DNA of 13,355 bases from a virus, in the UHGV virus genome UHGV-1987395. One strand, written 5' to 3'. Positions 1 through 13,355 of this stretch are shown one piece after another. Under the pieces are notes generated by a model that had not been told where the DNA came from, did not search any database, and worked only from the letters and a program-made list of their open reading frames with translations. How positions within the stretch are numbered: the first letter of the stretch is position 1; each line of letters starts with the position of its first letter. The translations under genes and the position numbers were made by a program.

Positions 1-1
1 A

Positions 2-346
2 GATGAGCACGGTTATCCGATTCTGACAAGTGATGAGATGAACGCCAAATACAAAGGGATTCAGGCAACATTTAAGGATCGGAAGAGCATTAAACTCTCT
101 GAATTGCGAGATGCATTTTACGGGCCGGAGGTGATGGATAAAATTAAAGGCACCGTTGAGGGTAGAATCTGGAAAGAAGATGATTATTGGCATTTAACAG
201 AACAGGCCCTTAAGGTGGCTCAACATGTAGCTAAAAGAGGTAAAACAATTATCATCGATTATATTAGTCATGGCTATGATGCCCCGAAAGAAAGATTGTG
301 GAACAACTGCAAGCTTGTAAAAGGCGAATTAACCATTACAAAATAA
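2..346 (+). CDS. hypothetical protein, 5'-truncated at window edge
   Basis: Frame is open from position 2 to the TAA at 344-346; the first in-window ATG is at 38. No family recognised. Confidence 0.4.
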   Translation, partial: DEHGYPILTSDEMNAKYKGIQATFKDRKSIKLSELRDAFYGPEVMDKIKGTVEGRIWKEDDYWHLTEQALKVAQHVAKRGKTIIIDYISHGYDAPKERLWNNCKLVKGELTITK

Positions 347-386
347 ACATTCTTATTTTTTTACAGTATTCTAAAGGAAATTTAAA

Positions 387-533
387 ATGTATGGCGATTT
401 TGATTATTACCTGGAAAAGGAAAAATATTTTGAAGATGAACTATCACAACATTTTTCATATTGGGAAGAATATTGTGGTTGGTTAGCTGAAGATCCAGCA
501 GATGAAGAAAATGATTCTGACATCCCTTATTAA
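387..533 (+). CDS. small acidic hypothetical protein (48 aa)
   Basis: ATG at 387 preceded by AGGAAA 6 nt upstream; translation MYGDFDYYLEKEKYFEDELSQHFSYWEEYCGWLAEDPADEENDSDIPY is very D/E-rich. Below the 60-aa cut-off of the ORF track; preferred over the overlapping 298..486 ORF, which has no RBS. Confidence 0.35.
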   Translation: MYGDFDYYLEKEKYFEDELSQHFSYWEEYCGWLAEDPADEENDSDIPY

Positions 534-631
534 TTAATATCCCCTGTTATCCCCAAACAAACTAAATAAATAAACTAAGCACTAGAACTAGATTGATTGC
601 CCTGATCTTTTAAACGTTCGGAGAATTAATC

Positions 632-1117
632 ATGTTCAAATCTGATCTTTCTGATTCCCAATTTGAAAAACTGGTAGCACTGCAGAAATATCTCCCCAGT
701 GATGATCAACCAACACGACAGGCTAAACACTTATTAGTCGAGGGCTTTACCCCTGAATTCGTGGCGGAATATACAGGCGTTAAACTTGAGAAAGTCCAAA
801 AACTATATAATGAGTCCTGGAATCCACGGTGTCGAGTTCCCCTCAGTGTCTACAACGAAATAGATAGAGATAGAAATGTCTTCGAAGATCGCCGCCGCAA
901 ATCTCTTTTAATGTGGAATTGTGGGATGAATATTGAAGAGATAGCAAAAGAATTAAAAGTAACCTGCTTTCATGTCTGGGGCTTGTTGAGTGAAATCCTG
1001 CCACGTAAGGAGCTTAATCAACGTTTGCCTAAGCCCGGTAGTCGTGCTTATCGCGAATTTATATTCATCTACCGCCGCCATAGCAATAAAGTCCGGAAAG
1101 CAATGCAGCGCAAATAG
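632..1117 (+). CDS. putative HTH transcriptional activator (Mor/C-like or sigma region-4-like)
   Basis: GGAG 8 nt upstream of ATG; segment RRKSLLMWNCGMNIEEIAKELKVTCFHVWGLLSEI resembles, from memory, the C-terminal HTH of Mu Mor/C-family activators; basic C-terminus. Confidence 0.4.
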   Translation: MFKSDLSDSQFEKLVALQKYLPSDDQPTRQAKHLLVEGFTPEFVAEYTGVKLEKVQKLYNESWNPRCRVPLSVYNEIDRDRNVFEDRRRKSLLMWNCGMNIEEIAKELKVTCFHVWGLLSEILPRKELNQRLPKPGSRAYREFIFIYRRHSNKVRKAMQRK

Positions 1118-1205
1118 CTTATAGCCTTCACATATGCCGCAAGTTATTGATTCTGCCGTCCGGTAAATATGCCGGATGGCTCATATAAATTTTAAGGAAT
1201 TCCAA

Positions 1206-1649
1206 ATGTCTCAAATCGCTAAATTATTATCCCAGGTTATCAAAGCTATCGACGCTGAAGATTCAAAAGTTCGCCAGGATCTTTTAGATGGCAAGTTTAC
1301 CAACACCCTGGCATTTACCCGTGACAAAGAGCACTTCTTAAAACACAGACACCACGCTTTTGCTGAATGCAAGTCCGCTAATGGTGATGTTTTCTATGTC
1401 GATTTGGTGGTTATGGCATGTAGGCTGTGGATGATTCAGGACCTTATGCGCCAACACGGTGATGATCCTCTTATCAGCATGTGGAACAGCGCCCAGGATG
1501 GCTTTGTGATTGCTGCCTTATCCAAATCAATGATTGAGGCAGAAGGGGCAAGCCTTCAGAACATGGCAGATCTCTTTGAAATAAGCGTAGGAATGATGCA
1601 GACCATGCTCCAAGCTGTCAAACCTCTCAAACTGGTTAATCTTGATTAA
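1206..1649 (+). CDS. hypothetical protein
   Basis: ORF 1176..1649 in the track; ATG at 1206 has AAGGA 8 nt upstream, whereas ATG at 1176 has no clear SD. No family recognised. Confidence 0.45.
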   Translation: MSQIAKLLSQVIKAIDAEDSKVRQDLLDGKFTNTLAFTRDKEHFLKHRHHAFAECKSANGDVFYVDLVVMACRLWMIQDLMRQHGDDPLISMWNSAQDGFVIAALSKSMIEAEGASLQNMADLFEISVGMMQTMLQAVKPLKLVNLD

Positions 1650-1703
1650 GATATTGATAAATAAGCACTCCCCATTTTTTTGGGGGTGCATCAATGAGAG
1701 GAT

Positions 1704-2093
1704 ATGCCTATGAATATTGAAGAAATGATAGTTGAATTCGAAGAGGGTGATTTCCTGGAAGAAGGGGAGTTTAAATACTCCCGTTTTAAACAGGCGTTAT
1801 TTAGCAGCGATGATAAACCCCACGTTAGTGATCTTAATGATGATGATTTATGTCGCCTGGTGTGCACCCGCTTATATGAAGATGGAAAGTATACAGGCCA
1901 AAACTTTCCAAATCTCTATTTCAAAGCACAAACATTTGAGGAAGGGCAAAGAGTGAAAAACCTGGTCGATCAAATGCTGTCAGCCGGATATTTGCATAAA
2001 GAATTATTAAATCCTAAAGCTGAAAGCAAGCGCCATTATATTTTTGTGTGGTCTGTGGGGGATAAGTGCCCACTGAAGCGTAAAGGTAAATGA
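1704..2093 (+). CDS. hypothetical acidic protein; possible tail assembly chaperone
   Basis: GAGAGGA SD upstream of ATG; acidic N-terminus; lies two genes upstream of the tape measure gene, the usual position of chaperones. Call is positional only. Confidence 0.4.
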   Translation: MPMNIEEMIVEFEEGDFLEEGEFKYSRFKQALFSSDDKPHVSDLNDDDLCRLVCTRLYEDGKYTGQNFPNLYFKAQTFEEGQRVKNLVDQMLSAGYLHKELLNPKAESKRHYIFVWSVGDKCPLKRKGK

Positions 2094-2094
2094 T

Positions 2095-2280
2095 ATGAAT
2101 ACCTACGAAAAGATTTATCAAAAATTAAAAAGTGATAACAATGCTCCCGTCATCAAGGGCGGGGCTTCTTCCTCTGGTGACCTCTCAATCGAAGAGCTTG
2201 CGGAGAAATATAATATTGATAAAGAGGCCCTGAAAAGGGCTATTTCATTATCAAAATCTTTAAGACAGGGCGAGGTGTAA
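2095..2280 (+). CDS. hypothetical small protein (61 aa)
   Basis: ATG 1 nt after the stop of the upstream ORF (TGAtATG), suggesting translational coupling; ends 3 nt before the tape measure start. Confidence 0.35.
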   Translation: MNTYEKIYQKLKSDNNAPVIKGGASSSGDLSIEELAEKYNIDKEALKRAISLSKSLRQGEV

Positions 2281-2283
2281 GAG

Positions 2284-4404
2284 ATGGCAATGAAGGAAGT
2301 AGCCAAGCTAACAAACGTTATTTACTGGGATTCTGATAAATCCTCCTGGCGAAAAGAAGTTAAACGGCTTGAGGATTATAAAAAATCCTGGAAGAAAGCT
2401 ACCGACGATATAGCTAAAGCGGATTTTAAATCGAATCAGGCTGTGCTCAGAACACAAAGAACACGCGCTAAGGTGGAAGAGCAGATTGCCAGAGCTCAGA
2501 GGAAACAACAGGAAGCACAGAAGAAACAACGTGCTCAGGCTGTCAGCCGTCTGACCGGGGGCAATAATCCGGAGCTCTCCTCTATGCGCAAGTTCTATCA
2601 GCAGCAAGCCAGAGAGGCCGCCAGACAACAAAAACTGTTAGATCGTAGTGTTGGAGATGTTCAGCACAGAAAAGCACGTGTAGGGGCCAACAGTGCACGA
2701 ATCAGCAGTATGTTTGATGGCTCCCTGGTTGCTCAGTTCCAAAGCAGAATCCAGAGAGTTAATGCTGATTATGCTAAAGGGGCTATCAACCTGCAGACCT
2801 ATAATCAGAGGATGGCCCGACTCAGATCTGAAATGAAGATGGCAACAGCTGAAGCCGGAAAATTCCAGAGCAGACTAGATAAACTGGCATCAGGTGCCAG
2901 CAAGGTGCATGACAACCTGGGCAAAATCAACTCCACGCTGGGCAAGATAGCCATTGGCCTTACTGCCGCTGGCTGGGGTGTTCAGCGTGCTGTTAGTGGT
3001 GCTATGGGTAGCCTTGCAGATCGCAACAGTGCCTACTTCGGTTTGATGGCACAGAACAAGGATGATAAAGCCAAGACTGATCAGCAGATGGCTTTTATCA
3101 AGAACACAGCCTACACCTATGGGATGGATGAGCGGGAGATGCAAGGGGGCTACATGCGCTTTGCTGCAGCTACCCCCACCATGAAGGAATCTGATAAGCA
3201 GGCTCTCTTTGAGGCTATGGCTATTAAAGGCCGCTCAGTGGGTGCTACTGGCGAGCAACAGAACAGGGCGCTTGTTGCGGTCCAACAAATGGCTTCAAAG
3301 GGAAAAGTTATGGCGGAAGAGCTGCGGGGCCAACTGTCAGAAGCCTTTGCAGGCTCACAACAGGACTTCCAACAGGCCGCTATTGATGCCGGAATCATCA
3401 AAAATACCCAGGAATTCGATAAAGCCCTTAAAGATGGCAAAATCACCCTGGACAAACTTCTTCCCTCTCTGGTGAAAATCTGGGGTGCAGCAAAAGAAAC
3501 TAAAGCTTTTGCTGAATCCATGAAACAGCCAGAAGTAGCAATGCAGCGCATGAAAAACAGCTTTAACGAGCTGGCGATTCAGTTTATGGGTGTTGTGGAT
3601 CCTGCAGATGGCGTTATTAGCTTATCTGAATCTCTAATCTCCATCTTCGAAGACCTCACCACTGATATGGACGGCAGCGGGAGCGCGGCAAAACAGTTTG
3701 GTGAGGCAGTCGGTGCTGCCATGCGGGAGATCATGTATTGGGTAGGCTTCGCTAAGGGATATATTGAGGTCAAGGCTAAAGAGTTCGGCATGACCGGATC
3801 AGAGGTTGGCGAGCTTATCGGGAAACTGGTAGTCGGCTTAGCTGGTCTGAAAGTTATTACCACACTGCTTTCCCCTCTGACCGGATTTGTTTCACTTGTC
3901 ACTCAGCTGATAGCCTTGTTAGGTAAAATCCCTGGTATGAGCAAGCTTCTGGCTTCTGCCTCAGGTGGAACGGCAACAGGAGCAGCGGTCATCAGTGCAG
4001 GATCTAACGCTGAAAGAAGCTTCATTGATGGCAAGACGCAGGAAATGAGTAAGGAGAACTCAAAACAGGGTGCTTTGTTTGAGCTGGGAAGATTTGTCAG
4101 CAATGCTGGCGCACTGTTCACACCTGGCGGCGATACTGGTCCTTTGTTCGATCAGGTCAGAGGCTGGTTTAATAAAGGGCCAACATTGACAGTAGACACT
4201 GGCATCAGACCAACACCGACGGGTGGCATGGCTATCCAGAATGGTGGATATCAACCAGTCCAAGTAAATGTAGCCCCACAAGGTGAGATTTCCGGCAAAT
4301 GGGAGATAACCATCGATGAGGGGGGAATTGCCAGGGTAATTCAGAAGGAAGTCAGCGATCAGTTGGATTGGAAAGCCACACAGGAATCTAACCAGCTTTT
4401 CTAA
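2284..4404 (+). CDS. phage tail tape measure protein
   Basis: 706 aa; N-terminal Q/R/K/A-rich predicted coiled coil; central region (NKDDKAKTDQQMAFIKNTAYTYGMDEREMQGGYMRFAAATPTMKESDKQALFEAMAIKGRSVGATGEQQNRALVAVQQMASKG...) resembles the conserved tape-measure core domain; Gly-rich hydrophobic segment near the C-terminus. Confidence 0.7.
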   Translation: MAMKEVAKLTNVIYWDSDKSSWRKEVKRLEDYKKSWKKATDDIAKADFKSNQAVLRTQRTRAKVEEQIARAQRKQQEAQKKQRAQAVSRLTGGNNPELSSMRKFYQQQAREAARQQKLLDRSVGDVQHRKARVGANSARISSMFDGSLVAQFQSRIQRVNADYAKGAINLQTYNQRMARLRSEMKMATAEAGKFQSRLDKLASGASKVHDNLGKINSTLGKIAIGLTAAGWGVQRAVSGAMGSLADRNSAYFGLMAQNKDDKAKTDQQMAFIKNTAYTYGMDEREMQGGYMRFAAATPTMKESDKQALFEAMAIKGRSVGATGEQQNRALVAVQQMASKGKVMAEELRGQLSEAFAGSQQDFQQAAIDAGIIKNTQEFDKALKDGKITLDKLLPSLVKIWGAAKETKAFAESMKQPEVAMQRMKNSFNELAIQFMGVVDPADGVISLSESLISIFEDLTTDMDGSGSAAKQFGEAVGAAMREIMYWVGFAKGYIEVKAKEFGMTGSEVGELIGKLVVGLAGLKVITTLLSPLTGFVSLVTQLIALLGKIPGMSKLLASASGGTATGAAVISAGSNAERSFIDGKTQEMSKENSKQGALFELGRFVSNAGALFTPGGDTGPLFDQVRGWFNKGPTLTVDTGIRPTPTGGMAIQNGGYQPVQVNVAPQGEISGKWEITIDEGGIARVIQKEVSDQLDWKATQESNQLF

Positions 4405-4504
4405 TGTCCACTCTGTGGATTTGAGTTCTACTCAAACCTGCATAGCAGGCACTGATATTGTGATCAAAATCAATAAGTTAGCCTGACCGGGTAAACTCCA
4501 GGCA

Positions 4505-4537
4505 AGAAAAAAGCCCCTAAGTGTTAACAAAGGGGCT
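4505..4537 (-). terminator. candidate intrinsic terminator, minus strand
   Basis: 7-bp stem AGCCCCT (4512-4518) / AGGGGCT (4531-4537) with a 12-nt loop, followed on the minus strand by TTTTTT (plus A-run 4505-4511). Confidence 0.45.
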
Positions 4538-4957
4538 CTTCTCCGGTATCCTTTTGATGCGGGGCGAACCTGCTAACAAAAATCAACCTCTCGCGAGACT
4601 AATGTTAGCAGGTTGCCGGAAGGTAAGTCAACTCCGGTCTATAAACCTTAAAGCGACTATAAAATCGCCCCGCCAATTGTGATGATCCGACCTTTGAGGC
4701 GGGTCCGGTGCCCAGGGGGGTGCAGTGATGCACAAACCAGGCAACGATAAACAGGCTAACAGTGATAGCGGCGCTCAATCAGCGCACTAAATCCTAACCA
4801 GTCCGGGAAAGAGGCTGGCTCTATCGACCGCTCATGCACGGGACAATGCATACCTGATAAAGGATTCTCACAAGGGACCAATCGCGAGAAAAGAAGAGGA
4901 AAGGGGCTGATTTGTGGTGTATCACTACGGCCTCAAAAGACCTTCTATTGTCTTTTT

Positions 4958-5416
4958 TCAACCTCTCCCCACATTTGACCAGTATTTGATTGCACCGATC
5001 AAATCATCATAGTGGCGCATTGCATCATTGAAGCCTTTATAGCTTGCCCATTGTGGGGAAACCTTGTTATTGCTGAATTGCCCACTAATCAGGATAGTCT
5101 CCAGAATGTCGGCGTATCGCTTGCCAATTCGCTTTCTGACGGCCTCAGAGCTTCCACCCTTTACGATTGCATTAATCAGGGCTTTTGTGTGTCTCAGGCT
5201 CTCATAGAGCATTGCAGCGTGGGCAGATTCCATAAAGGAGCGCTTAGGCAGATCACCCCACCCCTCAGAGTGGATAGCTGCCAGTGTGGCGTAATTCAGG
5301 CCGCTATAGTGCTTTCCGTCATCCCAGCCAACCGCTACACCTTCCATCTGTGAGAGCTCTTTATGCAGCTTATCCATCATGCGCTTGTCTATGGTGCAAC
5401 GGACTTTCGGACTCAT
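4958..5416 (-). CDS. putative virion morphogenesis / head-tail joining protein
   Basis: 152 aa; ATGA start-stop overlap with the upstream gene; segment LAAIHSEGWGDLPKRSFMESA resembles, from memory, the motif of HK97 gp10-like head-tail joining proteins. Weak. Confidence 0.35.
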   Translation of the reverse strand: MSPKVRCTIDKRMMDKLHKELSQMEGVAVGWDDGKHYSGLNYATLAAIHSEGWGDLPKRSFMESAHAAMLYESLRHTKALINAIVKGGSSEAVRKRIGKRYADILETILISGQFSNNKVSPQWASYKGFNDAMRHYDDLIGAIKYWSNVGRG

Positions 5417-6216
5417 TTGTTGATCTCCGTGATGTCATCGAGCAACATGTTGGCCTTATCAATCATCGTTTCGTGGAACTCATTCGACACAACAGACTTA
5501 TCACCTGCGGCAATCTTTCCCGCTGCCTCTCCCTGTGCATATTCCCCGCGATGCTTAGCCCTGGTAGATTTCGTAGCAGCGTTGCCAGCGTTGCTACCCT
5601 CTTTAGCACTGTTAACAGCACCCTTTTGCTGTGTTTTATTCACCTTCTTACTGTTAGTGAAAACTCCGGCATTTTCGACCATCTTCACCTTGAAGGTGCG
5701 GAATTCTTCAAAGGTGCAATCAATAGTGATGCAGTCACCAGAGGAAGAGCTACGCTTAACTTCACATTTCGTCATGATGAAGTTCTCAAGGAGTCCGGCA
5801 TCTTCACTCACCAGGCTGACCAGCTGGCGCTTGTCTCTCATTTCCATAAGTGCCTGAACAGCGGCAGCAGGGCGCATAGATTCACGGGGATTATCTGGAT
5901 CAGTGTTCCGGTCGATGTAGTTCTCTTTCCGGATGATATAAGGGGAAGAGGTAATAATACCCGTAAAGCTGACAGATTTATCTTTAATGACGGCATGGTC
6001 TGACATGGTGGTGCCATCCTCGACCGCATAGCTCGATTTCTCAACAGGGAACGAATAGCTGACATCAGAGATAGAGTCAAAGAAGATAGCCACATTATCG
6101 GTATAGTTGAAGCCATCCATTATATTTTTGTTTTGTGAATATCCCCCACACATAACAGTGAATGCAGGAGATCTCGACTCAGCTTGTTTTGCAGCTGTCA
6201 GAGCATCACTAGCCAT
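5413..6216 (-). CDS. hypothetical protein, probable virion protein by context
   Basis: ORF 5413..6225 in the track; ATG at 6216 has GGAGG 10 nt upstream, while the ATG at 6225 sits 1 nt from the SD. In the capsid operon; no family recognised. Confidence 0.45.
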   Translation of the reverse strand: MASDALTAAKQAESRSPAFTVMCGGYSQNKNIMDGFNYTDNVAIFFDSISDVSYSFPVEKSSYAVEDGTTMSDHAVIKDKSVSFTGIITSSPYIIRKENYIDRNTDPDNPRESMRPAAAVQALMEMRDKRQLVSLVSEDAGLLENFIMTKCEVKRSSSSGDCITIDCTFEEFRTFKVKMVENAGVFTNSKKVNKTQQKGAVNSAKEGSNAGNAATKSTRAKHRGEYAQGEAAGKIAAGDKSVVSNEFHETMIDKANMLLDDITEINK

Positions 6217-6321
6217 ATTAAACATGCCTCCAAAATGAATCTTTTCGTTGCCCTGCTTAAAATCTGCAGAAAATACAGGGCAGTTATTCGTTAGAATCGC
6301 TTATAGCTCTTCCCGAGAGCG

Positions 6322-6573
6322 TTATTTTGCAAAACGATTATGGGCATTCAGGGCTTTTTTGCGGTCCTGGGCTTGTTTGCGTGCAATAAAATGTTCGAAA
6401 GTCTCGGCCCAGGTGCATTTATTATATTCACGGTATTTATGCATAGCCTGGCGGCTAACGTCATAGCAGGCGGCAAATGTGGAGATACGCAGGAATTCCG
6501 GCAGATCCTCGTCATCGATATGGATAATATCAAAAGGCACGTCGTCACGGTCGCCGTATAAAACAATTTTCAT
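6322..6573 (-). CDS. hypothetical small protein (83 aa)
   Basis: ATG at 6573 with GAGGTG 6 nt upstream; the 6582 start in the track is GTG. Lies just downstream of the post-capsid terminator hairpin. Confidence 0.4.
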   Translation of the reverse strand: MKIVLYGDRDDVPFDIIHIDDEDLPEFLRISTFAACYDVSRQAMHKYREYNKCTWAETFEHFIARKQAQDRKKALNAHNRFAK

Positions 6574-6605
6574 AAAATACACCTCAAAAACTTAAGACGG
6601 GGATA

Positions 6606-6670
6606 ACAAAAAAGGGAAGAGGGAAAGACCTATCCCCGATCTCTCACCTCTTCCCTTTGCTTTTATTTGG
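6606..6670. terminator. bidirectional intrinsic terminator/attenuator between capsid gene and downstream gene
   Basis: 9-bp stem GGGAAGAGG (6614-6622) / CCTCTTCCC (6647-6655); flanked by an A-run 6608-6613 (a T-run on the minus strand) and a T-rich tract 6656-6668 on the plus strand. Confidence 0.55.
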
Positions 6671-6686
6671 CCTTCGAAGAAGGACC

Positions 6687-7730
6687 TTATTTAGCCTTGG
6701 CTTTTGCCAGAGCAGCGGCGGCGGAGTTTTTAACACTCACTTTAACCACAACTTCGGGCATCATGTTCATGAAAGCATAAGAGGATTCAACGAAGATTTC
6801 TCGTTTGCCTCTGGACTCTTCCATATACATGAAAGCTTCACGTGCAGCGCCGTTTGCAAGCTTCAGGTTGCGAGCGCAAGGGCCGAAAAATTGAGTATAA
6901 ACGCCCACCATATCGCCTAACGCATGCGGCTGGAACTGTGGGACCAGATAAGCAGTATTCTCTGGCAGACTATCCATTTGCACCACACGCAGAGCTAAGC
7001 CCGGAATGCGGAAGGTCGGGAAGCCCGGCAGAATATCCTCAGGGAACATCAGACCTTTGTCGGTAATATTCTGATTGCCGAACAACAGCACTTTACGGAG
7101 CAGTTCATCAGTCTGAATAGCGGCGAACACCTCAGCACGGCAGAACAGGGTGAAACCACGCAGAGCGCGAACGACACCACGCTGTTTAACCTTGCTCAGT
7201 GCAACCAGGTCCTGCAGTTGTTTGAGAATATCTTGAGCTAGATCCATTTCAGAGGTGGACTGTTCCACGCCCAGCAGTTCGCACACATTCAGCTCTTTAC
7301 CCTTGGTGAGGATAATTTTGTTCTCAAAGAGAGCAAGCTGGCGTGCTTCTTCGTGGGTCTGGCGTAAGCCTTCGCCCAGTTGAATAACACGACGAGCGGT
7401 TACAGACTCTAAATTCTCTTCGGAATCTTTGCCAGGAACACGAATACCCTGCCAGTCAGAAGGATAAATAGCACTTGATGCGGCAGTGAACGCCATATCA
7501 CCCGTGCCCGTTTCACGCTCATCTGCGGTAATGGTCGCCATCTGTTCACCGTAGCGCGGATACTGACCGAAAGCGGTTTGTTTCACCTGGCGAACTTTGT
7601 CATATTCAAATTTAAAGGTATTGCACAGAGCAGTAGTGTTGAAGATATCCATTGCTGAAATAATCTGGTTATCCAGCGGGATGTCTTTAATCAAGCCACA
7701 CAGATCGCGGACTTCGAATTCTTTTTTCAT
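6687..7730 (-). CDS. phage major capsid protein (E-family-like)
   Basis: 347 aa from ATG 7730 with AAGGAGG 6 nt upstream (the 7736 start in the track is TTG); size and position directly after a decoration-like gene match the usual decoration + E-family capsid pairing; Ala/Lys-rich C-terminal tail. Confidence 0.6.
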   Translation of the reverse strand: MKKEFEVRDLCGLIKDIPLDNQIISAMDIFNTTALCNTFKFEYDKVRQVKQTAFGQYPRYGEQMATITADERETGTGDMAFTAASSAIYPSDWQGIRVPGKDSEENLESVTARRVIQLGEGLRQTHEEARQLALFENKIILTKGKELNVCELLGVEQSTSEMDLAQDILKQLQDLVALSKVKQRGVVRALRGFTLFCRAEVFAAIQTDELLRKVLLFGNQNITDKGLMFPEDILPGFPTFRIPGLALRVVQMDSLPENTAYLVPQFQPHALGDMVGVYTQFFGPCARNLKLANGAAREAFMYMEESRGKREIFVESSYAFMNMMPEVVVKVSVKNSAAAALAKAKAK

Positions 7731-7741
7731 CTCCAACCTCC

Positions 7742-8077
7742 TTATTGTGCAATTCGCAAATCGCCATTGCTGGCAGCGATAACAGCGGCTAAGCCTTCTT
7801 TATCCACGTAGGCCGGATTGATGTAGCAACCTTTGTTGGCAACAACGATAAAAGCATCACCAACCTCAGCACGTTCTACAACCAGCAGCGGAGTTTTACC
7901 GGTGTGCGTTGCTTTAACGAAGGTCTCAACCTCGCCAGCCTCAGTCACCACAACAACAGTGCCAGCCGGAATCTCAGCCTTAACTTTGTTTTTAACTTCA
8001 ACGTCGCGAATACTAAATTGCTCATCTGCGGCGTATGAAATGATGTGTCCGCGTGTGCGGATAGTCATATCTCTCAT
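7742..8077 (-). CDS. putative head decoration protein (DUF2190-like)
   Basis: 111 aa; AGGTGA 4 nt upstream of ATG; Val/Gly/Ala-rich beta-type sequence; sits directly upstream of the capsid gene, with its stop overlapping the capsid SD. Confidence 0.5.
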   Translation of the reverse strand: MRDMTIRTRGHIISYAADEQFSIRDVEVKNKVKAEIPAGTVVVVTEAGEVETFVKATHTGKTPLLVVERAEVGDAFIVVANKGCYINPAYVDKEGLAAVIAASNGDLRIAQ

Positions 8078-8567
8078 TTGATCACCTGCGATTTAAATTA
8101 ACTCCCCTCAAAGAGTTCCGGTATAACCTCTCAAACCACGACAGGCTCGGGCCGAAAAGTTATGCCGGAAATCTAAAGGGAAATTGATACAAGGAGAGGG
8201 AGATAGCCCCGCACCGTAGCCAAGCGGGGGCTATTCCACATGGGGAAACCGACAACAGTCGGATGATAGTTCACAGTATGGTTACGGTTACTAGAGAGCA
8301 CTATCACGAAAGGCACTCCCCCGAATCAGTTCAGGCTGCGGTCACATCAGCGGGGAAATACCTTTCGGGATAGCTACCCACACAGAAAACCCGCAAAAGA
8401 AAACTGTGTGGATAACTAGCCCAATAGGAGAATTAATCGACCACTCAACGATGATCAGGGTAGTGTTATTTATAAGGCGGCACCGCTACCTGGTCGCCTT
8501 TACTTTGGAGGAAAATACGGCAAATCAAGATCTTCTCAAATGATATTGATTCCATACTATACTGTAT

Positions 8568-8596
8568 ATTATATCAGTATTTACTCACATTGTCAA
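8568..8596 (-). promoter_or_regulatory. consensus sigma70 promoter reading leftward toward the capsid operon
   Basis: On the minus strand: TTGACA (plus 8596-8591), 17-nt spacer, TATAAT (plus 8573-8568). Perfect match at both hexamers with optimal spacing. Confidence 0.6.
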
Positions 8597-8750
8597 CACC
8601 TTGATTATATAAATTCTAATAATTAGCGTAGTAACGGTATTTTCAGACCTCTATCAATCCCATCAATACGTCACCCCCACCCTTTAGATGCATACATCCG
8701 ACCTACTTTGTAGGCTTGGCGTACTGCCAAGGTCGCAGCTATGCGACTCC

Positions 8751-8783
8751 TATCTATCACCACTTTATAAAGCTTGATAGATA
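8751..8783. promoter_or_regulatory. dyad-symmetric operator-like site
   Basis: TATCTATCA (8751-8759) and TGATAGATA (8775-8783) are perfect inverted repeats, concentric with an inner perfect palindrome CTTTATAAAG (8763-8772); overlaps a candidate -35 TTGATA at 8774-8779. Confidence 0.4.
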
Positions 8784-8926
8784 TCTTTTGATCAATATCA
8801 ATGTTTTCCAGAGATTTACCCGGCTATAGTTCGAATCAAGGAAGGGGAGCATTGATAGAGACACCCAAAGGGGTGACTGAAAGTCACCTGGCATAGCCAG
8901 TGAAAGCACCCAACCGAACAAACAAA

Positions 8927-8944
8927 TCAACTTCTCGCAAAAGG
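8927..8944 (+). promoter_or_regulatory. conserved 5'-UTR motif, copy 1
   Basis: TCAACTTCTCGCAAAAGG ends 8 nt before ATG 8953; near-identical to the copy at 9446-9464. Confidence 0.4.
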
Positions 8945-8952
8945 TGATAGTT

Positions 8953-9075
8953 ATGGGTATCAAGAACAGTGCCAGCGCATGGCAAAAGGCCAGGTTTCAT
9001 CACCCACACATGGTCAAGGCAATTGAGGTGGTTGGAGTTTTAGCCCTGATGTTAGCTCTGTGTGTGGAGGTGTGA
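8953..9075 (+). CDS. possible small membrane peptide (40 aa)
   Basis: AAGGTGA SD; translation MGIKNSASAWQKARFHHPHMVKAIEVVGVLALMLALCVEV has a C-terminal hydrophobic helix; preceded by the conserved TCAACTTCTCGCAAA motif. Below the track cut-off. Confidence 0.25.
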   Translation: MGIKNSASAWQKARFHHPHMVKAIEVVGVLALMLALCVEV

Positions 9076-9076
9076 G

Positions 9077-9157
9077 ATGGGTAAAGGAGGCAAAGAATTT
9101 TTAATAGGTCTGGCAGTCTTAGATTTTGTATTAATCATCATTGAGCGGAGTTTATGA
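9077..9157 (+). CDS. possible small membrane peptide (26 aa)
   Basis: GGAGGTG SD 4 nt upstream; translation MGKGGKEFLIGLAVLDFVLIIIERSL; its stop overlaps the next start as ATGA. Confidence 0.2.
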   Translation: MGKGGKEFLIGLAVLDFVLIIIERSL

Positions 9158-9414
9158 CGGGAACTAAAGATATTAAGAGACTGAGGGAAGAGCTGATAGC
9201 TGAAATTAAAGCTAAGGCAAAGCAAATGGAGATAGCCGCACAAATGGATGTAGCGGAACAGATGTACAAGATGGTTGAGGAGGGAACGCCACGACAGGTT
9301 ATAGCAAAAACCTTCGGTGTGGGGATCGCCACCGTGCACAGAAGGCTGAAAGCCTATGCCGACTACCACAATATCGAGAGAAAGGAGGATGGGAGATTTA
9401 AGAAGAATAAATAG
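9154..9414 (+). CDS. small DNA-binding protein with resolvase/invertase-type HTH
   Basis: 86 aa; charged helical N-terminus; C-terminal GTPRQVIAKTFGVGIATVHRRLK resembles, from memory, the Hin/Gin C-terminal HTH (GHPRQQLAIIFGIGVSTLYRY); no recombinase catalytic domain. Confidence 0.5.
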   Translation: MTGTKDIKRLREELIAEIKAKAKQMEIAAQMDVAEQMYKMVEEGTPRQVIAKTFGVGIATVHRRLKAYADYHNIERKEDGRFKKNK

Positions 9415-9445
9415 TGTGAACAGTCCAATAGGTTATTAACTAAAT

Positions 9446-9464
9446 TCAACTTCTCGCAAAGGGG
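9446..9464 (+). promoter_or_regulatory. conserved 5'-UTR motif, copy 2
   Basis: TCAACTTCTCGCAAAGGGG ends 7 nt before ATG 9472; same motif as 8927-8944. Confidence 0.4.
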
Positions 9465-9471
9465 TACCACT

Positions 9472-10059
9472 ATGAACATTAAAACTATCATTGCAGCCAT
9501 CACCATTGCCTTTAGTGCCAACACTGCAGCTATTGATGTTAATTTATTTCAGAAGATGACTTGCGAAGATAAATTAGTTGCCATGGATAAGGGGCTAGAA
9601 GCCACGCATAATGGGGAACAGTTTCATTTCTCCTTGAAGAATCTTATCTTGCCCCTGGATTCTGCCGCACAGGTATATGCAACATTGGGTAAATTTGAGA
9701 AGCCGGAAATTGACCTGCAGGGCGTGAGAGCGAAGATCACCAAAAGAAATGAAAGCATTTGTGATATAGCGGTTACGGCCCTTATGACAGATGATGAAAA
9801 AACGATTATAGCTACATGCAAAGATAGCAACGACAACGAACGATTCTTTAAGATCACCCACAACAGGCCCGTTTCTTTCTACTCTAATGCCACAATGGGC
9901 GCGGGTATGCAGTGGCTGAAGAGAGCTAAAGTAACTGAGGTTAATGCTGATGACGATTTATCCTATGAATACGGTTTTATTTCCAATTATATGGCGTGGC
10001 ACCTGAAAAAATGCGGCATCAATGGTCAGGCATACGACAATGGATTTTGGTTTTTCTAA
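9472..10059 (+). CDS. secreted/periplasmic protein of unknown function
   Basis: N-terminal signal peptide MNIKTIIAAITIAFSANTAA with an AxA-like cleavage site; AGGGG SD; followed by an intrinsic terminator at 10081-10106; ends in aromatic FWFF. Confidence 0.55.
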   Translation: MNIKTIIAAITIAFSANTAAIDVNLFQKMTCEDKLVAMDKGLEATHNGEQFHFSLKNLILPLDSAAQVYATLGKFEKPEIDLQGVRAKITKRNESICDIAVTALMTDDEKTIIATCKDSNDNERFFKITHNRPVSFYSNATMGAGMQWLKRAKVTEVNADDDLSYEYGFISNYMAWHLKKCGINGQAYDNGFWFF

Positions 10060-10080
10060 CCTATTAAGTTAATCCCACCT

Positions 10081-10106
10081 GGGGGCCATCACGGCCCCTT
10101 TTTATT
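10081..10106 (+). terminator. intrinsic terminator after the secreted-protein gene
   Basis: GGGGCC (10082-10087), loop ATCAC, GGCCCC (10093-10098), then TTTTTATTT. Confidence 0.65.
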
Positions 10107-10108
10107 TA

Positions 10109-10164
10109 TCCCCTATTTAACCCCTATTTAATGGGTATTTAATGCCTATTTATTGATTTAATGG
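10109..10164. repeat. five tandem copies of an 11-bp unit (consensus about CCCTATTTAA)
   Basis: TCCCCTATTTAA / CCCCTATTTAA / TGGGTATTTAA / TGCCTATTTAT / TGATTTAATGG in direct succession immediately after the terminator; 11-bp period is about one helical turn. Confidence 0.55.
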
Positions 10165-11566
10165 TTTTGGGCATTGTTGACAGTGTAAGAGAGAGGATGT
10201 AACCCTTTTTTGTAATACTAATAAAATCAATAGCTTAGCTCAATTGGCCTTTTCTCTGTTTTTGTCAAATTTAACATACCCTAAAAAACTGCAAAATCTG
10301 GCTGCAAGATTATCTGCAGCTGGATTTCTTACACCTCATTTTGTGGTATCACCCTGACTAGTTTGTGCATAAAATGAACAGTTTTTAACATTTCCTCTTC
10401 ACCTGGTAACCACACAAAAAGCTAAAAACGAGGCACAGATAATCTTAGAGGCCTGTTTTCTTGTTATCACTCTAGAAACGTCGTAGAGATGATTTTAATG
10501 AAAGATGACCTACCCTATTACACCCCTATTTTTTGTTATCACAATTGCATCCTGTGCGGTGTATGGCTATGTGCTGAAAGCGGTCTTATGTGTGGGTGTC
10601 AGAAATATCCATTAGCGGTATTAATACCCGTCGGAGATTCGTCTGAGGTGCCAGGCAGGCGCTCCCCCACCTCCCTTTTTTCTTCTAACAATTCTCAAAT
10701 ATCACACCACTGCCGACCACGTTACTACTCTGTTAATTCTTAAGCTTTGCTGTATGTTGTGCACATTATTTATTCAGGTGGCTGTACGTAAATTCTGTGC
10801 CCACTGATCATGATTTTTAAATCAGATTTTGTAGTTCGCTTTATTAGTGTAGATAAGATCTATTATGTTAAATGCAATTTTCCCAACCCTTCAAATCAAT
10901 GACTTACATGTAAGTATGCACTAACACCCCACACAGCACATTAGACGTATAGATGGCTATATCCCACATTTTTGATTGTTTTGTAGTCATTCCCCTGATC
11001 ATTTAACCAGTATAGTTTGTTCTCTGTAGACCACAAAATCGGAATTTACATCTGATTAACATAATCTGTTAGCATGATCACTATTACCCACACAACAATA
11101 ACCCCATGCAAGCCTCTTTAGGCAATTTATCGGCGTGTTGGTGTGAACAGTCTTTCATGTTCTTTATGAATTCATGACTGCAAGGAATGTATTCATTGTC
11201 CTGTGTGGGGGAAGGATGGACTGCCCCAGGGGCCATAGTTATGACACCCGGTCAACATAACTGTCGATAAAATCAACGGGTGTTGGTATGCATATTTCCC
11301 ACACATGAGAGAAAATCAAAGCAAAGAGAGAGGAGAGAGGTTTGCTAGTCAAAATAGGTCAATTGACGGCTAATACAGAGTAAAAAATCAGATGCAATCA
11401 CTCCCCCACCTGTTGGGATTTCCTACAACCCCTTTCAGTCATACTCAGGCACCACACCCCGGTAAATATTACCGCACTAACCTGTAAAGAATTTTCACAC
11501 CTGTGTGTTTATACAGTCATACTCTCCTGTTTTGCAGTCATTGCACCCATGATACACAGCCCCTAA

Positions 11567-11676
11567 CCTGTCAAAATATTTTACTACTTAGCCACTATAG
11601 CTATGCATACCTGTAAAATATTTTTACTACTACCTGTCAAAATACTTTACTACTACCTGTAAAAATATTTGACACT
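11567..11676. repeat. iteron-like 22-bp direct repeats (four copies, plus a degenerate copy at 11481-11500)
   Basis: CCTGTCAAAATATTTTACTACT (11567-11588), CCTGTAAAATATTTTTACTACT (11610-11631), CCTGTCAAAATACTTTACTACT (11633-11654), CCTGTAAAAATATTTGACACT (11656-11676); the last three are spaced 23 bp start to start. Confidence 0.6.
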
Positions 11677-11789
11677 AATAGATAAAGTAATAGACCACAC
11701 AAGATCCCCCCTAACCCCCCAGGGGGAATGGGGAGGGATCAGAGAGTGGGGAAGGTTTTCTAAGGGAAAAGCTTAACCCACAAATGAAA

Positions 11790-11818
11790 GCCTAAAGAGC
11801 ATTAGCGACTCTTTAGGC
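11790..11818. repeat. perfect 10-bp inverted repeat (hairpin or operator)
   Basis: GCCTAAAGAG (11790-11799), 9-nt spacer, CTCTTTAGGC (11809-11818); the half-site CTCTTTAGGCAAT recurs at 11114-11126. Confidence 0.5.
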
Positions 11819-12258
11819 AATATGTGTGTGGGTCACTCTGTGACTTTAGCTATACAGCTAAACCGACTACGTCGGCCTGTGTGTGGGGGTGACAATGTAT
11901 TCCATACATGACACGTCACCCAATTGTGTGTGGTCCGGCGAATGCGTCAGCATGAGGCCCACATGTGGACCGCTGCCGAAAGCTTGCCAGCGCCGGAAGG
12001 AGGCAGCAAAGAGTCTCCCGCGCGGGTGCACGCACACACATACAAAGGATACACTCATAAATCGAAAATAAGCCACCTAAATGGCCTTCTGGCTGCATTA
12101 ACTAGTGTGAGTAGTGCAATTGCATTACCTGACCTCTAAATCGCGTTAGAATCGATTTTAGAGCGCTTAAGGCAAAAAGTGCCCTCCCTTGTGGGCTTGC
12201 TTGTGTCTGCTGTGCAGGCTATGGCACCTATAGCACACCTAAATGATAATAATTCTCA

Positions 12259-12277
12259 TTGACAATTGGTTGACAAT
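12259..12277. promoter_or_regulatory. tandem TTGACAAT boxes (candidate operator or overlapping -35 elements)
   Basis: TTGACAAT at 12259-12266 and 12270-12277, 11 bp apart; a third copy at 12449-12456 forms the -35 of the downstream promoter. Confidence 0.4.
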
Positions 12278-12448
12278 GTGATAAGATTATAAATAGGGGG
12301 AGAAACAGATCCGGAGGTCAATGTGGAAATTACTGATGCAATAGCGATCATCAACCTGGCTGTACTGTGGTGCGGTGTTGCCTACATAGCCGGAGTAACT
12401 GCAATCGACAATCTTGAAGAAAAAATGATAGATAAATACAAAAAGATT

Positions 12449-12477
12449 GTTGACAATTTGACGAATGTCTGATAAAA
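12449..12477 (+). promoter_or_regulatory. sigma70-like promoter upstream of the 71-aa gene
   Basis: TTGACA (12449-12454), 17-nt spacer, TAAAAT (12472-12477). Confidence 0.5.
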
Positions 12478-12605
12478 TATAAAGCATAGGGTAATTCTCA
12501 TCATAGTGAATTTCCTTTAGTAGACTGGCGGGGGCTTGTCTTAAGTTCCCGTTTCTTTTTAATCATATATCGCACAGGTTAGTGAGCTAACAGGAGGCTT
12601 ATACT

Positions 12606-12821
12606 ATGGCTAAAACCGGACCGATCAGCCAGTTGGTAAACTGGACTACTGACGAAATCGTCGAGAACGTACTTAAGGGGAACTTCCGCAAAACTTCCGT
12701 TTATGCATTCATTCGTAAACATAAAGGAGAATATCCACACATTGAAGAAGCAATTTTAAAACTAAATTGCATTCGCCTTGAGCGGGAACTGGCTAAATAC
12801 ACCAATAACATTAATAAATAA
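12606..12821 (+). CDS. hypothetical small protein (71 aa), possible DNA-binding regulator
   Basis: AGGAGG 8 nt upstream of ATG; lies about 130 nt downstream of a consensus-like promoter; no family recognised. Confidence 0.45.
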   Translation: MAKTGPISQLVNWTTDEIVENVLKGNFRKTSVYAFIRKHKGEYPHIEEAILKLNCIRLERELAKYTNNINK

Positions 12822-12835
12822 TTATGGGGGAATTA

Positions 12836-13355
12836 TGGCAAGTAATTACGGGGAAAATTTTACTCCCCTTTTTAAACGTTTCATCAAATACATTTTTAAA
12901 AATCCGATTGCAAAAACTACAACCAATAAAGAAAGATTTCACTTAAACTTGTTGGAAATGACAATTTACGGTGAGATGGCAAGTTTTAATGCTGCAGGTT
13001 GTGAAATATTTATCTCTGAACAGAGATTAGCAGACGATTATGATGTTTCAAGACCGACAGTTATTAACTCGATTAAATCTCTAGAAAATGCCGGGCTTAT
13101 TTCAATAGTTAAAAGTAAAGGCAAATCTAATCATTACAAACTGCTAATTACCCCTGATCAGCTTGGCAAGATGTGTGATGAGCAGGGTATTAAAACCTCC
13201 GACAGTGTGGGATCTAGTAAAGAGGCCCCCGATAATCAACAGGAAGCCCCAAAACAAGCCACACAGCAAGCTAAAAAGGCCGAGGTGGTGCAATTGCCTA
13301 CCCAACCTAAGAACGAGCGCAGAGAGCGCTTTAGAGACGCTGGCAAACGTGAGAA
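12836..13355 (+). CDS. winged-HTH DNA-binding protein, putative replication initiator or regulator (3'-truncated)
   Basis: Open from ATG 12836 to the window end; segment ISEQRLADDYDVSRPTVINSIKSLENAGLISIVKSKGKSNHYKLL is a classic winged-HTH; followed by a low-complexity Q/K/A/E-rich linker. Confidence 0.5.

What the first reader, a model, noticed from the sequence alone, without database searches (positions are those of the whole stretch)
1704..2283. Chaperone-position gene pair before the tape measure gene lacks a canonical frameshift site
The 129-aa acidic ORF and the 61-aa ORF occupy the usual tail assembly chaperone position, where a programmed -1 frameshift normally fuses two ORFs. Here the second ORF is in the +1 frame, its frame is open only from 2077, and the junction (AAAGGTAAATGATATG) has no obvious slippery heptamer. 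The TGAtATG spacing favours termination-reinitiation instead.
Basis: partly seen in the sequence, partly recalled or inferred. Interest (0 to 1): 0.35.

Follow-up and report, generated by a model that had tools for sequence, protein, structure and literature searches.

The report
Two coupled small genes, no frameshift
The two small genes just before the tape measure gene are real, separate genes that sit back-to-back, are probably read one after the other without any frameshift, and do not resemble known tail chaperones; the main interest is their host, a 13-kb E. coli plasmid that looks like a phage satellite.

Summary
ORF1 is 1704/1710-2093 and ORF2 is 2095-2280, directly upstream of a 706-aa tape measure gene (2284-4404). 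ORF2 lies in the +1 frame, which is open only from 2077. There is no in-frame slippery heptamer, the -1 frame is full of stops, and no RNA structure stands out at the junction.

Across 23 related loci the ORF1-stop/ORF2-ATG distance stays short (1, 2 or 9 nt). The frame relation takes all three possible values (+1 in 20, -1 in 1, same frame in 2), so no conserved recoding fusion exists. Both ORFs are under purifying selection (dN/dS 0.13-0.25).

The chaperone premise is not supported:
- There is no tail tube gene upstream; a replication gene and HTH-like genes are there instead.
- No tail assembly chaperone family matches, even at E<=5.
- Predicted folds weakly resemble winged-helix (ORF1) and helix-turn-helix (ORF2) proteins.

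The closest phage relatives of this tape measure protein (rV5-like myophages) do keep a canonical chaperone gene (Pfam Phage_TAC_15) with a T_TTT_TTC -1 site.

The window is a complete circular E. coli plasmid of about 13.4 kb. It carries capsid, tape measure, tube-initiator and neck genes, which makes it satellite-like.

Verdict: ordinary, tightly packed cistrons that are probably translationally coupled. Their function is unknown.

The parts
1665..1689 (+). GC-rich hairpin (GCACTCCCCA-TTTTTT-TGGGGGTGC) between the 157-aa gene and ORF1. It may be a partial transcription stop that sets ORF1-ORF2-TMP apart as a unit.
   Evidence: RNA fold z=-2.49. Related loci have a hairpin at the same place, and L007 has a canonical terminator-like GAGGCC-cct-GGCCTC-TTTT there. 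It is absent in L020 and L026.
1696..1702 (+). Shine-Dalgarno-like GAGAGGA for ORF1. It lies 7 nt before ATG 1710 and only 1 nt before ATG 1704.
   Evidence: Read directly from the sequence. Homologues are all called from MNIEEM.
1710..2093 (+). ORF1, 127 aa (129 aa if started at 1704). It is an orphan protein with an acidic N-terminal 35 aa, a conserved core with three invariant Cys, and a basic KRKGK tail. The predicted core is winged-helix-like.
   Evidence: dN/dS 0.13-0.18. An exhaustive HMM search found only its own cluster plus one 105-aa orthologue. AF2 pLDDT 73.6. Foldseek best hits are winged-helix proteins at E 0.02-0.1.
2083..2087 (+). Weak Shine-Dalgarno-like AAGGT inside the last codons of ORF1, 7 nt upstream of the ORF2 ATG.
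   Evidence: Sequence. AAAGG is kept in all main-clade junction variants.
2091..2097 (+). Junction TGA-t-ATG: ORF1 stop, 1-nt spacer, ORF2 start. It is the likely site of translational coupling.
   Evidence: 20 of 23 family loci have TGAtATG, 1 has TGAttATG, and 2 have TGA+9 nt+ATG.
2095..2280 (+). ORF2, 61 aa. It is an orphan protein with a conserved N-terminal helix (MNTYEKIYQKL), a variable linker, and a conserved C-terminal helix-turn-helix-like part (LSIEELAEKYNIDKEALKRAISLSKSLRQGEV).
   Evidence: Alignments. dN/dS 0.15-0.25. Sub-threshold HTH hits in three diverged members. AF2 predicts three helices. Foldseek returns HTH domains only, but at E>=0.8.
2272..2277 (+). Strong Shine-Dalgarno GAGGTG for the tape measure gene. 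It is encoded by the last codons of ORF2 and lies 6 nt before ATG 2284.
   Evidence: Sequence. GAGGT is kept before the TMP start in the main-clade junctions printed (not in L022 or L007). The ORF2-stop/TMP-ATG spacers are 1, 3, 5 or 13 nt.
2284..4404 (+). Tape measure protein gene, 706 aa. It is the last gene of the rightward operon, and the next genes converge from the minus strand.
   Evidence: phrog_5255 E=7e-164, Pfam TMP_3, TIGR02675. 27% identical to rV5-like myophage TMPs.

Best explanation
ORF1 (1710-2093), ORF2 (2095-2280) and the tape measure gene (2284-4404) are three separate, tightly packed cistrons. They lie at the 3' end of the rightward operon of a ~13.4-kb circular, satellite-like E. 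coli plasmid. They are translated as separate polypeptides.

A ribosome ending ORF1 at UGA 2091-2093 is 1 nt from the ORF2 AUG. A weak SD (AAGGU) lies 7 nt upstream, so ORF2 is probably made by coupling: reinitiation and/or SD-assisted initiation. The last codons of ORF2 (GAG GUG) then form a strong SD 6 nt before the tape measure AUG. No frameshift or readthrough fusion is involved.

Shown here: the layout, the absence of recoding signals, the non-conserved frame relation, purifying selection on both ORFs, and the lack of any match to known tail assembly chaperones.

Inferred: the coupling itself and the function. My best guess on function is that both are element-specific small proteins built on winged-helix (ORF1) and helix-turn-helix (ORF2) scaffolds. 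They would act as nucleic-acid-binding regulators or as adaptors co-expressed with the element's own tape measure protein, rather than as G/GT-type chaperones.
For: - Layout and frames.
- No slippery heptamer, and a -1 frame full of stops.
- No structured RNA at the junction.
- 23 family loci: spacer 1 nt/+1 frame in 20, 2 nt/-1 frame in 1, 9 nt/same frame in 2. L020 and L021 read AAG_TGA, so even a Lys AAA>AAU +1 slip site is not kept.
- Every ORF2 homologue aligned or scanned begins at the conserved Met of M[NT]xY[ED]xIY.
- dN/dS: ORF1 0.13-0.18, ORF2 0.15-0.25, TMP 0.10-0.27.
- Positive control for the method: in rV5-like phages (closest TMP relatives) the gene before the TMP is Phage_TAC_15 (E=1e-23). 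It has an in-frame T_TTT_TTC and a 119-codon -1 extension ending just before the TMP.
- ORF1, ORF2, the 157-aa and the 161-aa proteins match no chaperone family at E<=5. hhalign against the rV5 chaperone gives probability <1%.
- Fold hits: winged-helix for ORF1, HTH for ORF2.
- Repeated sub-threshold HTH HMM hits on the same conserved part in three diverged ORF2 members.
- PGAP labels ORF2 'helix-turn-helix domain-containing protein' in one record.
Against: - Coupling has not been tested. The AAGGT SD alone could drive independent initiation.
- The fold matches are weak (Foldseek E 0.02-0.1 for ORF1, >=0.8 for ORF2). The models have moderate confidence (pLDDT 74 and 71) and rest on shallow alignments.
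- The predicted 'recognition' helix of ORF1 is not basic and the core is neutral, which is not typical of a DNA binder.
- Tail assembly chaperones are so diverged that absence of sequence matches is weak evidence. The rV5 chaperone itself finds no solved structure by sequence.
- The immediate, conserved position upstream of the TMP still fits a chaperone-like role. So does the published precedent of a satellite (PLE) carrying a TMP together with a chaperone (PMC12987554).
Confidence: 0.6

Rival explanations
1. ORF1 and/or ORF2 are non-canonical, frameshift-independent chaperones or adaptors for the element's own tape measure protein. They would be made as two polypeptides at a ratio set by translational coupling. 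They would let the plasmid-borne element insert its tape measure protein into tails built from a helper phage's tube and sheath.
For: - The position directly upstream of the TMP is conserved in both clades of the family.
- A hairpin or terminator-like element upstream of ORF1 in most members suggests ORF1-ORF2-TMP is one unit.
- The element has no other chaperone candidate, although it carries TMP, tube-initiator and neck genes related to rV5-like phages.
- PLE satellites encode a TMP, a chaperone and a baseplate hub protein together (PMC12987554).
- ORF1 is chaperone-sized and mildly acidic.
Against: - No chaperone family match at E<=5.
- hhalign against the rV5 chaperone gives probability <1%.
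- Neither 2OB9 nor 5IR0 is among the 50 best PDB fold matches, and no named chaperone is among the 50 best viral matches.
- In lambda the T part works only when fused to G (my own knowledge: Xu et al.), so a split pair is mechanistically awkward.
- The helper phage's own chaperone could serve instead.
Confidence: 0.25
2. A programmed +1 frameshift (a P-site Lys-tRNA slip at AAA_UGA_U, as in prfB) or another recoding event fuses ORF1 to ORF2 in a fraction of ribosomes.
For: - The ORF2 frame is open for 18 nt before its ATG and overlaps the ORF1 stop.
- An SD-like AAGGT lies just upstream of AAA_UGA.
- 20 of 23 loci keep the +1 relation.
Against: - AAA to AAU re-pairing is poor.
- The SD-like element abuts the slip codon instead of lying 3 nt away as in prfB (my own knowledge).
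- L020 and L021 have AAG_UGA.
- L024 has ORF2 in the -1 frame, and L007 and L025 have it in the same frame behind a stop plus 9 nt.
- The ORF2 ATG and N-terminus are conserved throughout the homologues examined.
- No stimulatory RNA structure.
Confidence: 0.03
3. ORF2 (or ORF1) is not a real gene: a chance open frame in a spacer before the tape measure gene.
For: - ORF2 is short (61 aa) and an orphan with no significant family match.
Against: - dN/dS is 0.15-0.25 for ORF2 and 0.13-0.18 for ORF1, like the TMP.
- Linker indels are always in frame, giving 60-99 aa products with conserved ends.
- An orthologue at 53% identity sits in the divergent clade.
Confidence: 0.02

Closest known systems
G/GT-type tail assembly chaperone pair with a -1 programmed frameshift (lambda G/GT; here Pfam Phage_TAC_15 of rV5-like myophages)
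   Same: Two small ORFs directly upstream of a tape measure gene. ORF1 is of similar size and mildly acidic.
   Different: - No slippery heptamer, no overlap, and the second ORF is in the +1 frame, with the frame varying across the family.
- No tail tube gene upstream.
- No sequence, profile or fold similarity.
- The rV5-like relatives themselves keep the canonical T_TTT_TTC site.
PLE satellites of Vibrio phage ICP1, which encode their own TMP, tail assembly chaperone and baseplate hub and build chimeric tails (PMC12987554)
   Same: A small, non-autonomous element carries a TMP plus a baseplate-proximal tail protein related to a lytic myophage lineage. Small genes accompany the TMP gene.
   Different: - Here the element is an iteron plasmid of E. 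coli, not an integrated island.
- It also has a capsid gene.
- The PLE chaperone is structurally like the HK97 chaperone (2OB9/5IR0), which ORF1 is not in my fold search.
- Helper dependence has not been shown here.
Ordinary translational coupling of adjacent bacterial cistrons (stop/start overlaps such as ATGA/TAATG, or spacers of a few nt)
   Same: A stop and a start 1 nt apart, with the SD of the downstream gene inside the upstream coding sequence. This applies at both junctions (ORF1/ORF2 and ORF2/TMP).
   Different: Nothing distinctive. No sequestering RNA structure was detected that would make the coupling obligatory.
Small winged-helix / helix-turn-helix proteins of phages and plasmids (PadR/AspA, MarR, GntR, YlxM, sigma region 4)
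   Same: Predicted secondary-structure order and best fold matches. ORF2 gives repeated weak HMM hits to HTH families over its conserved C-terminal part.
   Different: All scores are below the family thresholds. The putative recognition helix of ORF1 is not basic. ORF2 has a variable 0-38-aa linker between helix 1 and the HTH-like part.

Membership tests
Tail assembly chaperone G/GT | Gene pair lies between the tail tube gene and the tape measure gene | tested here: not met
   The pair is directly upstream of the TMP. The element has no tube gene. Upstream are a 157-aa unknown, a 161-aa HTH-like protein, a 48-aa ORF and a replication initiator.
Tail assembly chaperone G/GT | In-frame slippery heptamer and overlapping -1 ORF that give a G-T fusion | tested here: not met
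   No heptamer. The -1 frame is closed (stop at 2096-2098). ORF2 is in the +1 frame. The frame relation takes all three values in 23 loci. The same scan finds T_TTT_TTC plus a 119-codon extension in the rV5-like control.
Tail assembly chaperone G/GT | Sequence or profile similarity to a described chaperone family (Pfam Phage_TAC_*, PHROGs) | tested here: not met
   No hit in Pfam at E<=5 or in PHROGs at E<=1 for ORF1 and ORF2. The control protein matches Phage_TAC_15 at 1e-23. hhalign probability is 0.3%.
Tail assembly chaperone G/GT | Fold like solved chaperones (HK97 2OB9, PLE1 5IR0) | tested here: inconclusive
   These entries are not among the 50 best PDB matches of the ORF1 model, which are all winged-helix proteins. 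The model has only moderate confidence (pLDDT 73.6, 7 sequences), and only the top 50 were visible.
Tail assembly chaperone G/GT | Binds the tape measure protein and recruits tube protein | not testable with these tools
   This needs pull-downs or co-folding.
Translationally coupled cistrons | Stop and start codons overlapping or a few nt apart, kept in relatives | tested here: met
   Spacer 1 nt in 20 loci, 2 nt in 1 and 9 nt in 2. The ORF2-TMP spacers are 1-13 nt.
Translationally coupled cistrons | Downstream translation depends on upstream translation | not testable with these tools
   This needs premature-stop or ATG mutants with reporters. No sequestering structure is predicted, so dependence may be partial.
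Helix-turn-helix DNA-binding proteins (ORF2) | Score above the curated threshold of an HTH family | tested here: not met
   The best hit is UPF0122/YlxM at 20.1 bits against a cut-off of 22.7. GntR, HTH_11, HTH_psq and HTH_24 are all below threshold. Foldseek E>=0.8. This is a resemblance only.
Phage satellite with its own tail module (PLE-like) | Non-autonomous element with a TMP plus baseplate-proximal genes related to a helper phage | tested here: met
   TMP 27%, tube initiator 50% and neck/tail-completion protein 49% identical to proteins of rV5-like or related large myophages. No terminase, portal, tube or sheath was found.
Phage satellite with its own tail module (PLE-like) | Packaging and transfer depend on a helper phage | not testable with these tools
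   This needs an infection or transduction experiment.

The most novel reading that the evidence does not exclude
ORF1 and ORF2 are a previously unseen, frameshift-independent two-protein chaperone or adaptor set. It would load the plasmid's own tape measure protein into tails assembled from a helper rV5-like myophage's parts. That would make this 13-kb iteron plasmid a new kind of satellite that remodels both the head and the tail of a virulent coliphage.
Probability: 0.2. Interest if true: 0.6.

Novelty: new member of a known kind. Interest (0 to 1): 0.27.

Why it matters
For the finding itself, the value is mainly cautionary. 'Small acidic ORF pair before a tape measure gene' is not enough to call a chaperone, or to read a missing frameshift as unusual. 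Here the pair are orphan, tightly packed cistrons, probably translationally coupled.

The context matters more. The window is a complete member of a common family of E. coli plasmids of about 13-14 kb, seen on hundreds of contigs. The plasmid combines an iteron replicon with capsid, tape measure, tube-initiator and neck genes related to rV5-like lytic myophages.

Satellites that carry their own tape measure protein have only just been described (PLE, EPIP). An E. coli plasmid example would be an accessible model for chimeric tail assembly. ORF1 and ORF2 would be the first candidates to test as its tape-measure partners or regulators.

Tried and rejected
- **Whole-window megablast against phages:** no match. 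The MCP by tblastn against phages also gave no match.
- **TMP-based locus searches:** nothing in GTDB species representatives or in IMG/VR. Only the metagenome scan gave loci.
- **PDB sequence searches** with ORF1, ORF2, the ORF1 profile, the 157-aa profile and the rV5 chaperone profile gave only chance-level hits. Sequence-level comparison with solved chaperones is therefore uninformative.
- **The upstream 157-aa gene as the 'real' chaperone** (it has the same length as the rV5 chaperone): BLASTP E=40, hhalign probability 0.2%, no Pfam chaperone hit. It has one heptamer, A_AAT_TTT at 1187, with zero -1 extension. Rejected, though without a structure prediction.
- **ORF2 compared with the rV5 -1 extension:** no alignment.
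- **Rfam on the whole window:** nothing.
- **A second profile search with the ORF2 alignment** added only one more E. coli cluster.
- **Literature searches for this plasmid family** found no description of it. They did find the PLE and EPIP precedents.

Full report
**Observation**

The window has ORFs at 1704..2093 (129 aa) and 2095..2280 (61 aa), followed by a 706-aa ORF at 2284..4404. That ORF is a tape measure protein (TMP): phrog_5255 E=7e-164, Pfam TMP_3 E=5e-14, TIGR02675.

ORF2 is in the +1 frame relative to ORF1. Its frame has a stop at 2074-2076 and is open from 2077. The junction reads AAA GGT AAA TGA t ATG. A scan for in-frame X_XXY_YYZ heptamers finds none in ORF1 or ORF2. The -1 frame carries 30 stops between 1650 and 2300, one of them at 2096-2098. 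Folding 2040-2150 as RNA gives z=-0.10 against shuffles, so no stimulatory structure stands out.

Three small corrections apply:
- The likelier ORF1 start is ATG 1710. The GAGAGGA box at 1696-1702 lies 7 nt before it, and homologues are all called from MNIEEM.
- The protein is only mildly acidic (pI 5.4). The acidity is confined to an N-terminal 35 residues that the divergent orthologue lacks.
- Positions 2281-2283 are a spacer, not part of ORF2.

**What the window is**

Megablast against complete E. coli genomes shows that the whole window is 92-96% identical to seven circular plasmids of 13.3-13.7 kb. One 39.6-kb record holds three copies. PLSDB holds five, all typed non-mobilizable.

The window is circularly permuted inside a gene that wraps from about 12835 to 346. 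That gene matches replication initiators (phrog_270 E=5e-12; Pfam HTH_36, HTH_11). An ORF-poor stretch of about 2.3 kb holds two sets of tandem iteron-like repeats, at 10100-10151 and 11566-11677.

The rightward operon runs: replication initiator, 48-aa ORF, 161-aa protein (weak HTH hits), 157-aa protein (no hits), ORF1, ORF2, TMP.

Converging on it from the minus strand are:
- a Neck1/tail-completion protein (phrog_222);
- a Dit_like protein (PF21821);
- an 83-86-aa ORF;
- a major capsid protein (phrog_29);
- a 111-aa ORF.

No terminase, portal, tube, sheath or chaperone was found. So 'the usual chaperone position' is only half true. The pair is directly upstream of the TMP gene, but no tube gene precedes it, and the neighbourhood is replication and regulation.

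**Relatives and the junction**

ORF1 is an orphan.
- A word-indexed search of 5.8 billion proteins finds only E. coli clusters from contigs of about 13-14 kb.
- An exhaustive HMM search of 1.84 billion representatives adds one true relative, P0051 (105 aa, E=9e-28).
- P0051 comes from a 13.3-kb contig (L007) with the same gene order and a TMP 77% identical.

ORF2 likewise has relatives only in this family. They share a conserved N-terminal helix and a conserved C-terminal 33 residues. A linker that varies by 0-38 residues gives products of 60-99 aa.

I collected 23 family loci: RefSeq plasmids, metagenome contigs and assemblies. The ORF1-stop/ORF2-ATG junction is:

| Junction | Loci | ORF2 frame relative to ORF1 |
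|---|---|---|
| TGAtATG | 20 | +1 |
| TGAttATG | 1 (L024) | -1 |
| TGA + 9 nt + ATG | 2 (L007, L025) | same frame |

There are seven distinct junction sequences.

All three possible frame relations occur, so no single recoding event can be conserved. Two loci read AAG_TGA instead of AAA_TGA, which removes even a hypothetical Lys +1 slip. Every ORF2 homologue examined starts at the same conserved Met.

The ORF2-stop/TMP-ATG spacer also varies (1, 3, 5 or 13 nt). The frame relation at that junction is not conserved either.

What is conserved in the main clade is closeness plus ribosome-binding signals inside the upstream gene. AAGG(T) lies 7-8 nt before the ORF2 ATG, and GAGGT(G) lies 5-6 nt before the TMP ATG in most members. 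This is the signature of ordinary translational coupling. Coupling was not tested here and is inferred.

Both ORFs are real genes. dN/dS is 0.13-0.18 for ORF1 and 0.15-0.25 for ORF2, the same range as the TMP at 0.10-0.27.

**Positive control**

The closest phage relatives of this TMP are rV5-like myophages (27% identity over 498 residues). There the order is sheath, tube, a 157-161-aa gene, a short ORF, TMP.

The 157-aa protein matches Pfam Phage_TAC_15 at E=1e-23. It contains an in-frame T_TTT_TTC. Its -1 frame then runs 119 codons to the end of the short ORF, just before the TMP gene.

The same script and the same Pfam search that found nothing in the window recover a textbook case in the nearest phages. 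The element's ORF1 family and 157-aa family show no relation to that chaperone: hhalign probability 0.3% and 0.2%, and BLASTP E of 1.5 and 40.

**What the proteins look like**

The AlphaFold2 model of ORF1 has moderate confidence (pLDDT 73.6, pTM 0.59, from 7 sequences). It has the element order H44-58, E61-63, H76-92, E95-99, E112-116.

Its 50 best PDB matches are winged-helix proteins at E=0.02-0.14: eS10, AspA/PadR, RTP, MarR, Stf76, TFE-alpha and Z-alpha. The BFVD matches are mostly unnamed. The few that are named are helix-turn-helix or replication-initiation proteins, and none is a chaperone.

The ORF2 model (pLDDT 71) has three helices. Its fold matches are all HTH domains but are not significant, at E>=0.8.

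Three diverged ORF2 members each give sub-threshold HMM hits to HTH families over the same conserved C-terminal part. The best is UPF0122/YlxM at E=8e-4, 20.1 bits against a cut-off of 22.7. PGAP labels the protein 'helix-turn-helix domain-containing' in one record.

These are leads, not memberships. The ORF1 core is neutral and its putative recognition helix is not basic. A protein-binding use of the fold is equally possible.

**Mechanism and rivals**

Best supported (about 0.85 for the translation part, 0.6 for the whole statement including function): three separate cistrons that are tightly packed and probably coupled, with no recoding. The products are element-specific small proteins that are not recognisable G/GT chaperones.

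The main rival concerns function only (about 0.25): that they are non-canonical partners of the element's TMP. In its favour:
- The position is conserved.
- A hairpin or terminator-like element sits upstream of ORF1 in most members. It could set ORF1-ORF2-TMP apart as a unit.
- The element has no other chaperone candidate.
- PLE satellites of ICP1 encode a TMP together with a chaperone and a baseplate hub, and build chimeric tails (PMC12987554).

Against it: there is no family match and no similarity to the fold of 2OB9 or 5IR0 in the top matches. In lambda the T part needs to be fused to G (my own knowledge of Xu et al.).

A +1 frameshift fusion (0.03) and a non-gene artefact (0.02) are contradicted.

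**Comparison and novelty**

As a translation feature this is ordinary. As proteins, ORF1 and ORF2 are new orphan members of common small-protein kinds.

The element itself is the more notable thing. Its tube-initiator (50%), neck/tail-completion (49%) and TMP (27%) proteins are related to rV5-like or related large lytic myophages. It replicates as an iteron plasmid. One ORF2 variant alone is indexed in 443 blocks of the assembly collection, mostly on 10-20-kb contigs.

A preprint notes that TMPs are otherwise absent from satellites apart from PLE (PMC12822802). I found no paper describing this plasmid family in four searches. That is not proof that none exists.

**Verdict**

- The 'chaperone pair' premise is not supported.
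- Interest in the finding itself is low to moderate.

Noticed in passing
window 1-13355 (whole): The window is a complete circular E. coli plasmid of about 13.4 kb, 92-96% identical to 7 RefSeq plasmids and permuted inside a replication-initiator gene (about 12835 wrapping to 346). It carries capsid, TMP, tube-initiator (Dit_like) and neck/tail-completion genes but no terminase, portal, tube or sheath. That gives it a satellite-like gene set, and three tail proteins are related to rV5-like or related lytic myophages.
   Followed up: partly
window 10060-12320: A stretch of about 2.3 kb with no annotated gene in any RefSeq copy. It contains iteron-like tandem repeats: 11-nt units at 10100-10151 and 23-nt units at 11566-11677. 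It is presumably the replication origin region. Rfam finds nothing there.
   Followed up: partly
window 1665-1689; L007 5453-5475: There is a GC-rich hairpin between the 157-aa gene and ORF1 (z=-2.5). L007 has a canonical terminator-like GAGGCC-cct-GGCCTC-TTTT at the same place. L020 and L026 have no hairpin. This may be a regulated stop before ORF1-ORF2-TMP.
   Followed up: partly
window 2130-2180 (ORF2 linker); ORF1 C-terminus about 2055-2075: ORF2 varies from 60 to 99 aa between otherwise close plasmids, through in-frame cassettes of about 17-18 aa in its linker. Some ORF1 variants carry C-terminal insertions of 17-35 aa (144-162 aa in total).
   Followed up: partly
L019 5201-5934 (Escherichia phage EduardKellenberger, MZ501061.1): In rV5-like phage records the chaperone gene (Phage_TAC_15) and its -1 extension are annotated as two separate hypothetical proteins. 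An in-frame T_TTT_TTC at 5569 with a 119-codon -1 extension indicates an unannotated G/GT frameshift product.
   Followed up: yes
window 632-1117: The 161-aa basic protein (pI 9.7) has two HTH-like segments with weak hits to Sigma70_r4, HTH_40 and KorA. Together with the HTH_7-like 86-aa protein at 9154-9414, this makes the rightward operon rich in putative DNA binders.
   Followed up: no
window 8557-8624 and 12242-12489: Long imperfect inverted repeats (42 nt at 79% and 40 nt at 70%) contain TTGACAAT-type motifs. One copy lies in the divergent region near 8.5 kb, the other upstream of the 49-aa and 71-aa ORFs. They may be shared operator or promoter elements.
   Followed up: no
L033 (GCA_033543915.1 contig JAWROW010000003.1, 352,930 bp), L032, NZ_CP043822.1: One copy of the element lies at the end of a 353-kb chromosomal-looking contig, next to a DDE transposase and a beta-lactamase gene. 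This is either an integrated copy or an assembly join. Other records hold dimers (26.7 kb) or a trimer (39.6 kb).
   Followed up: no
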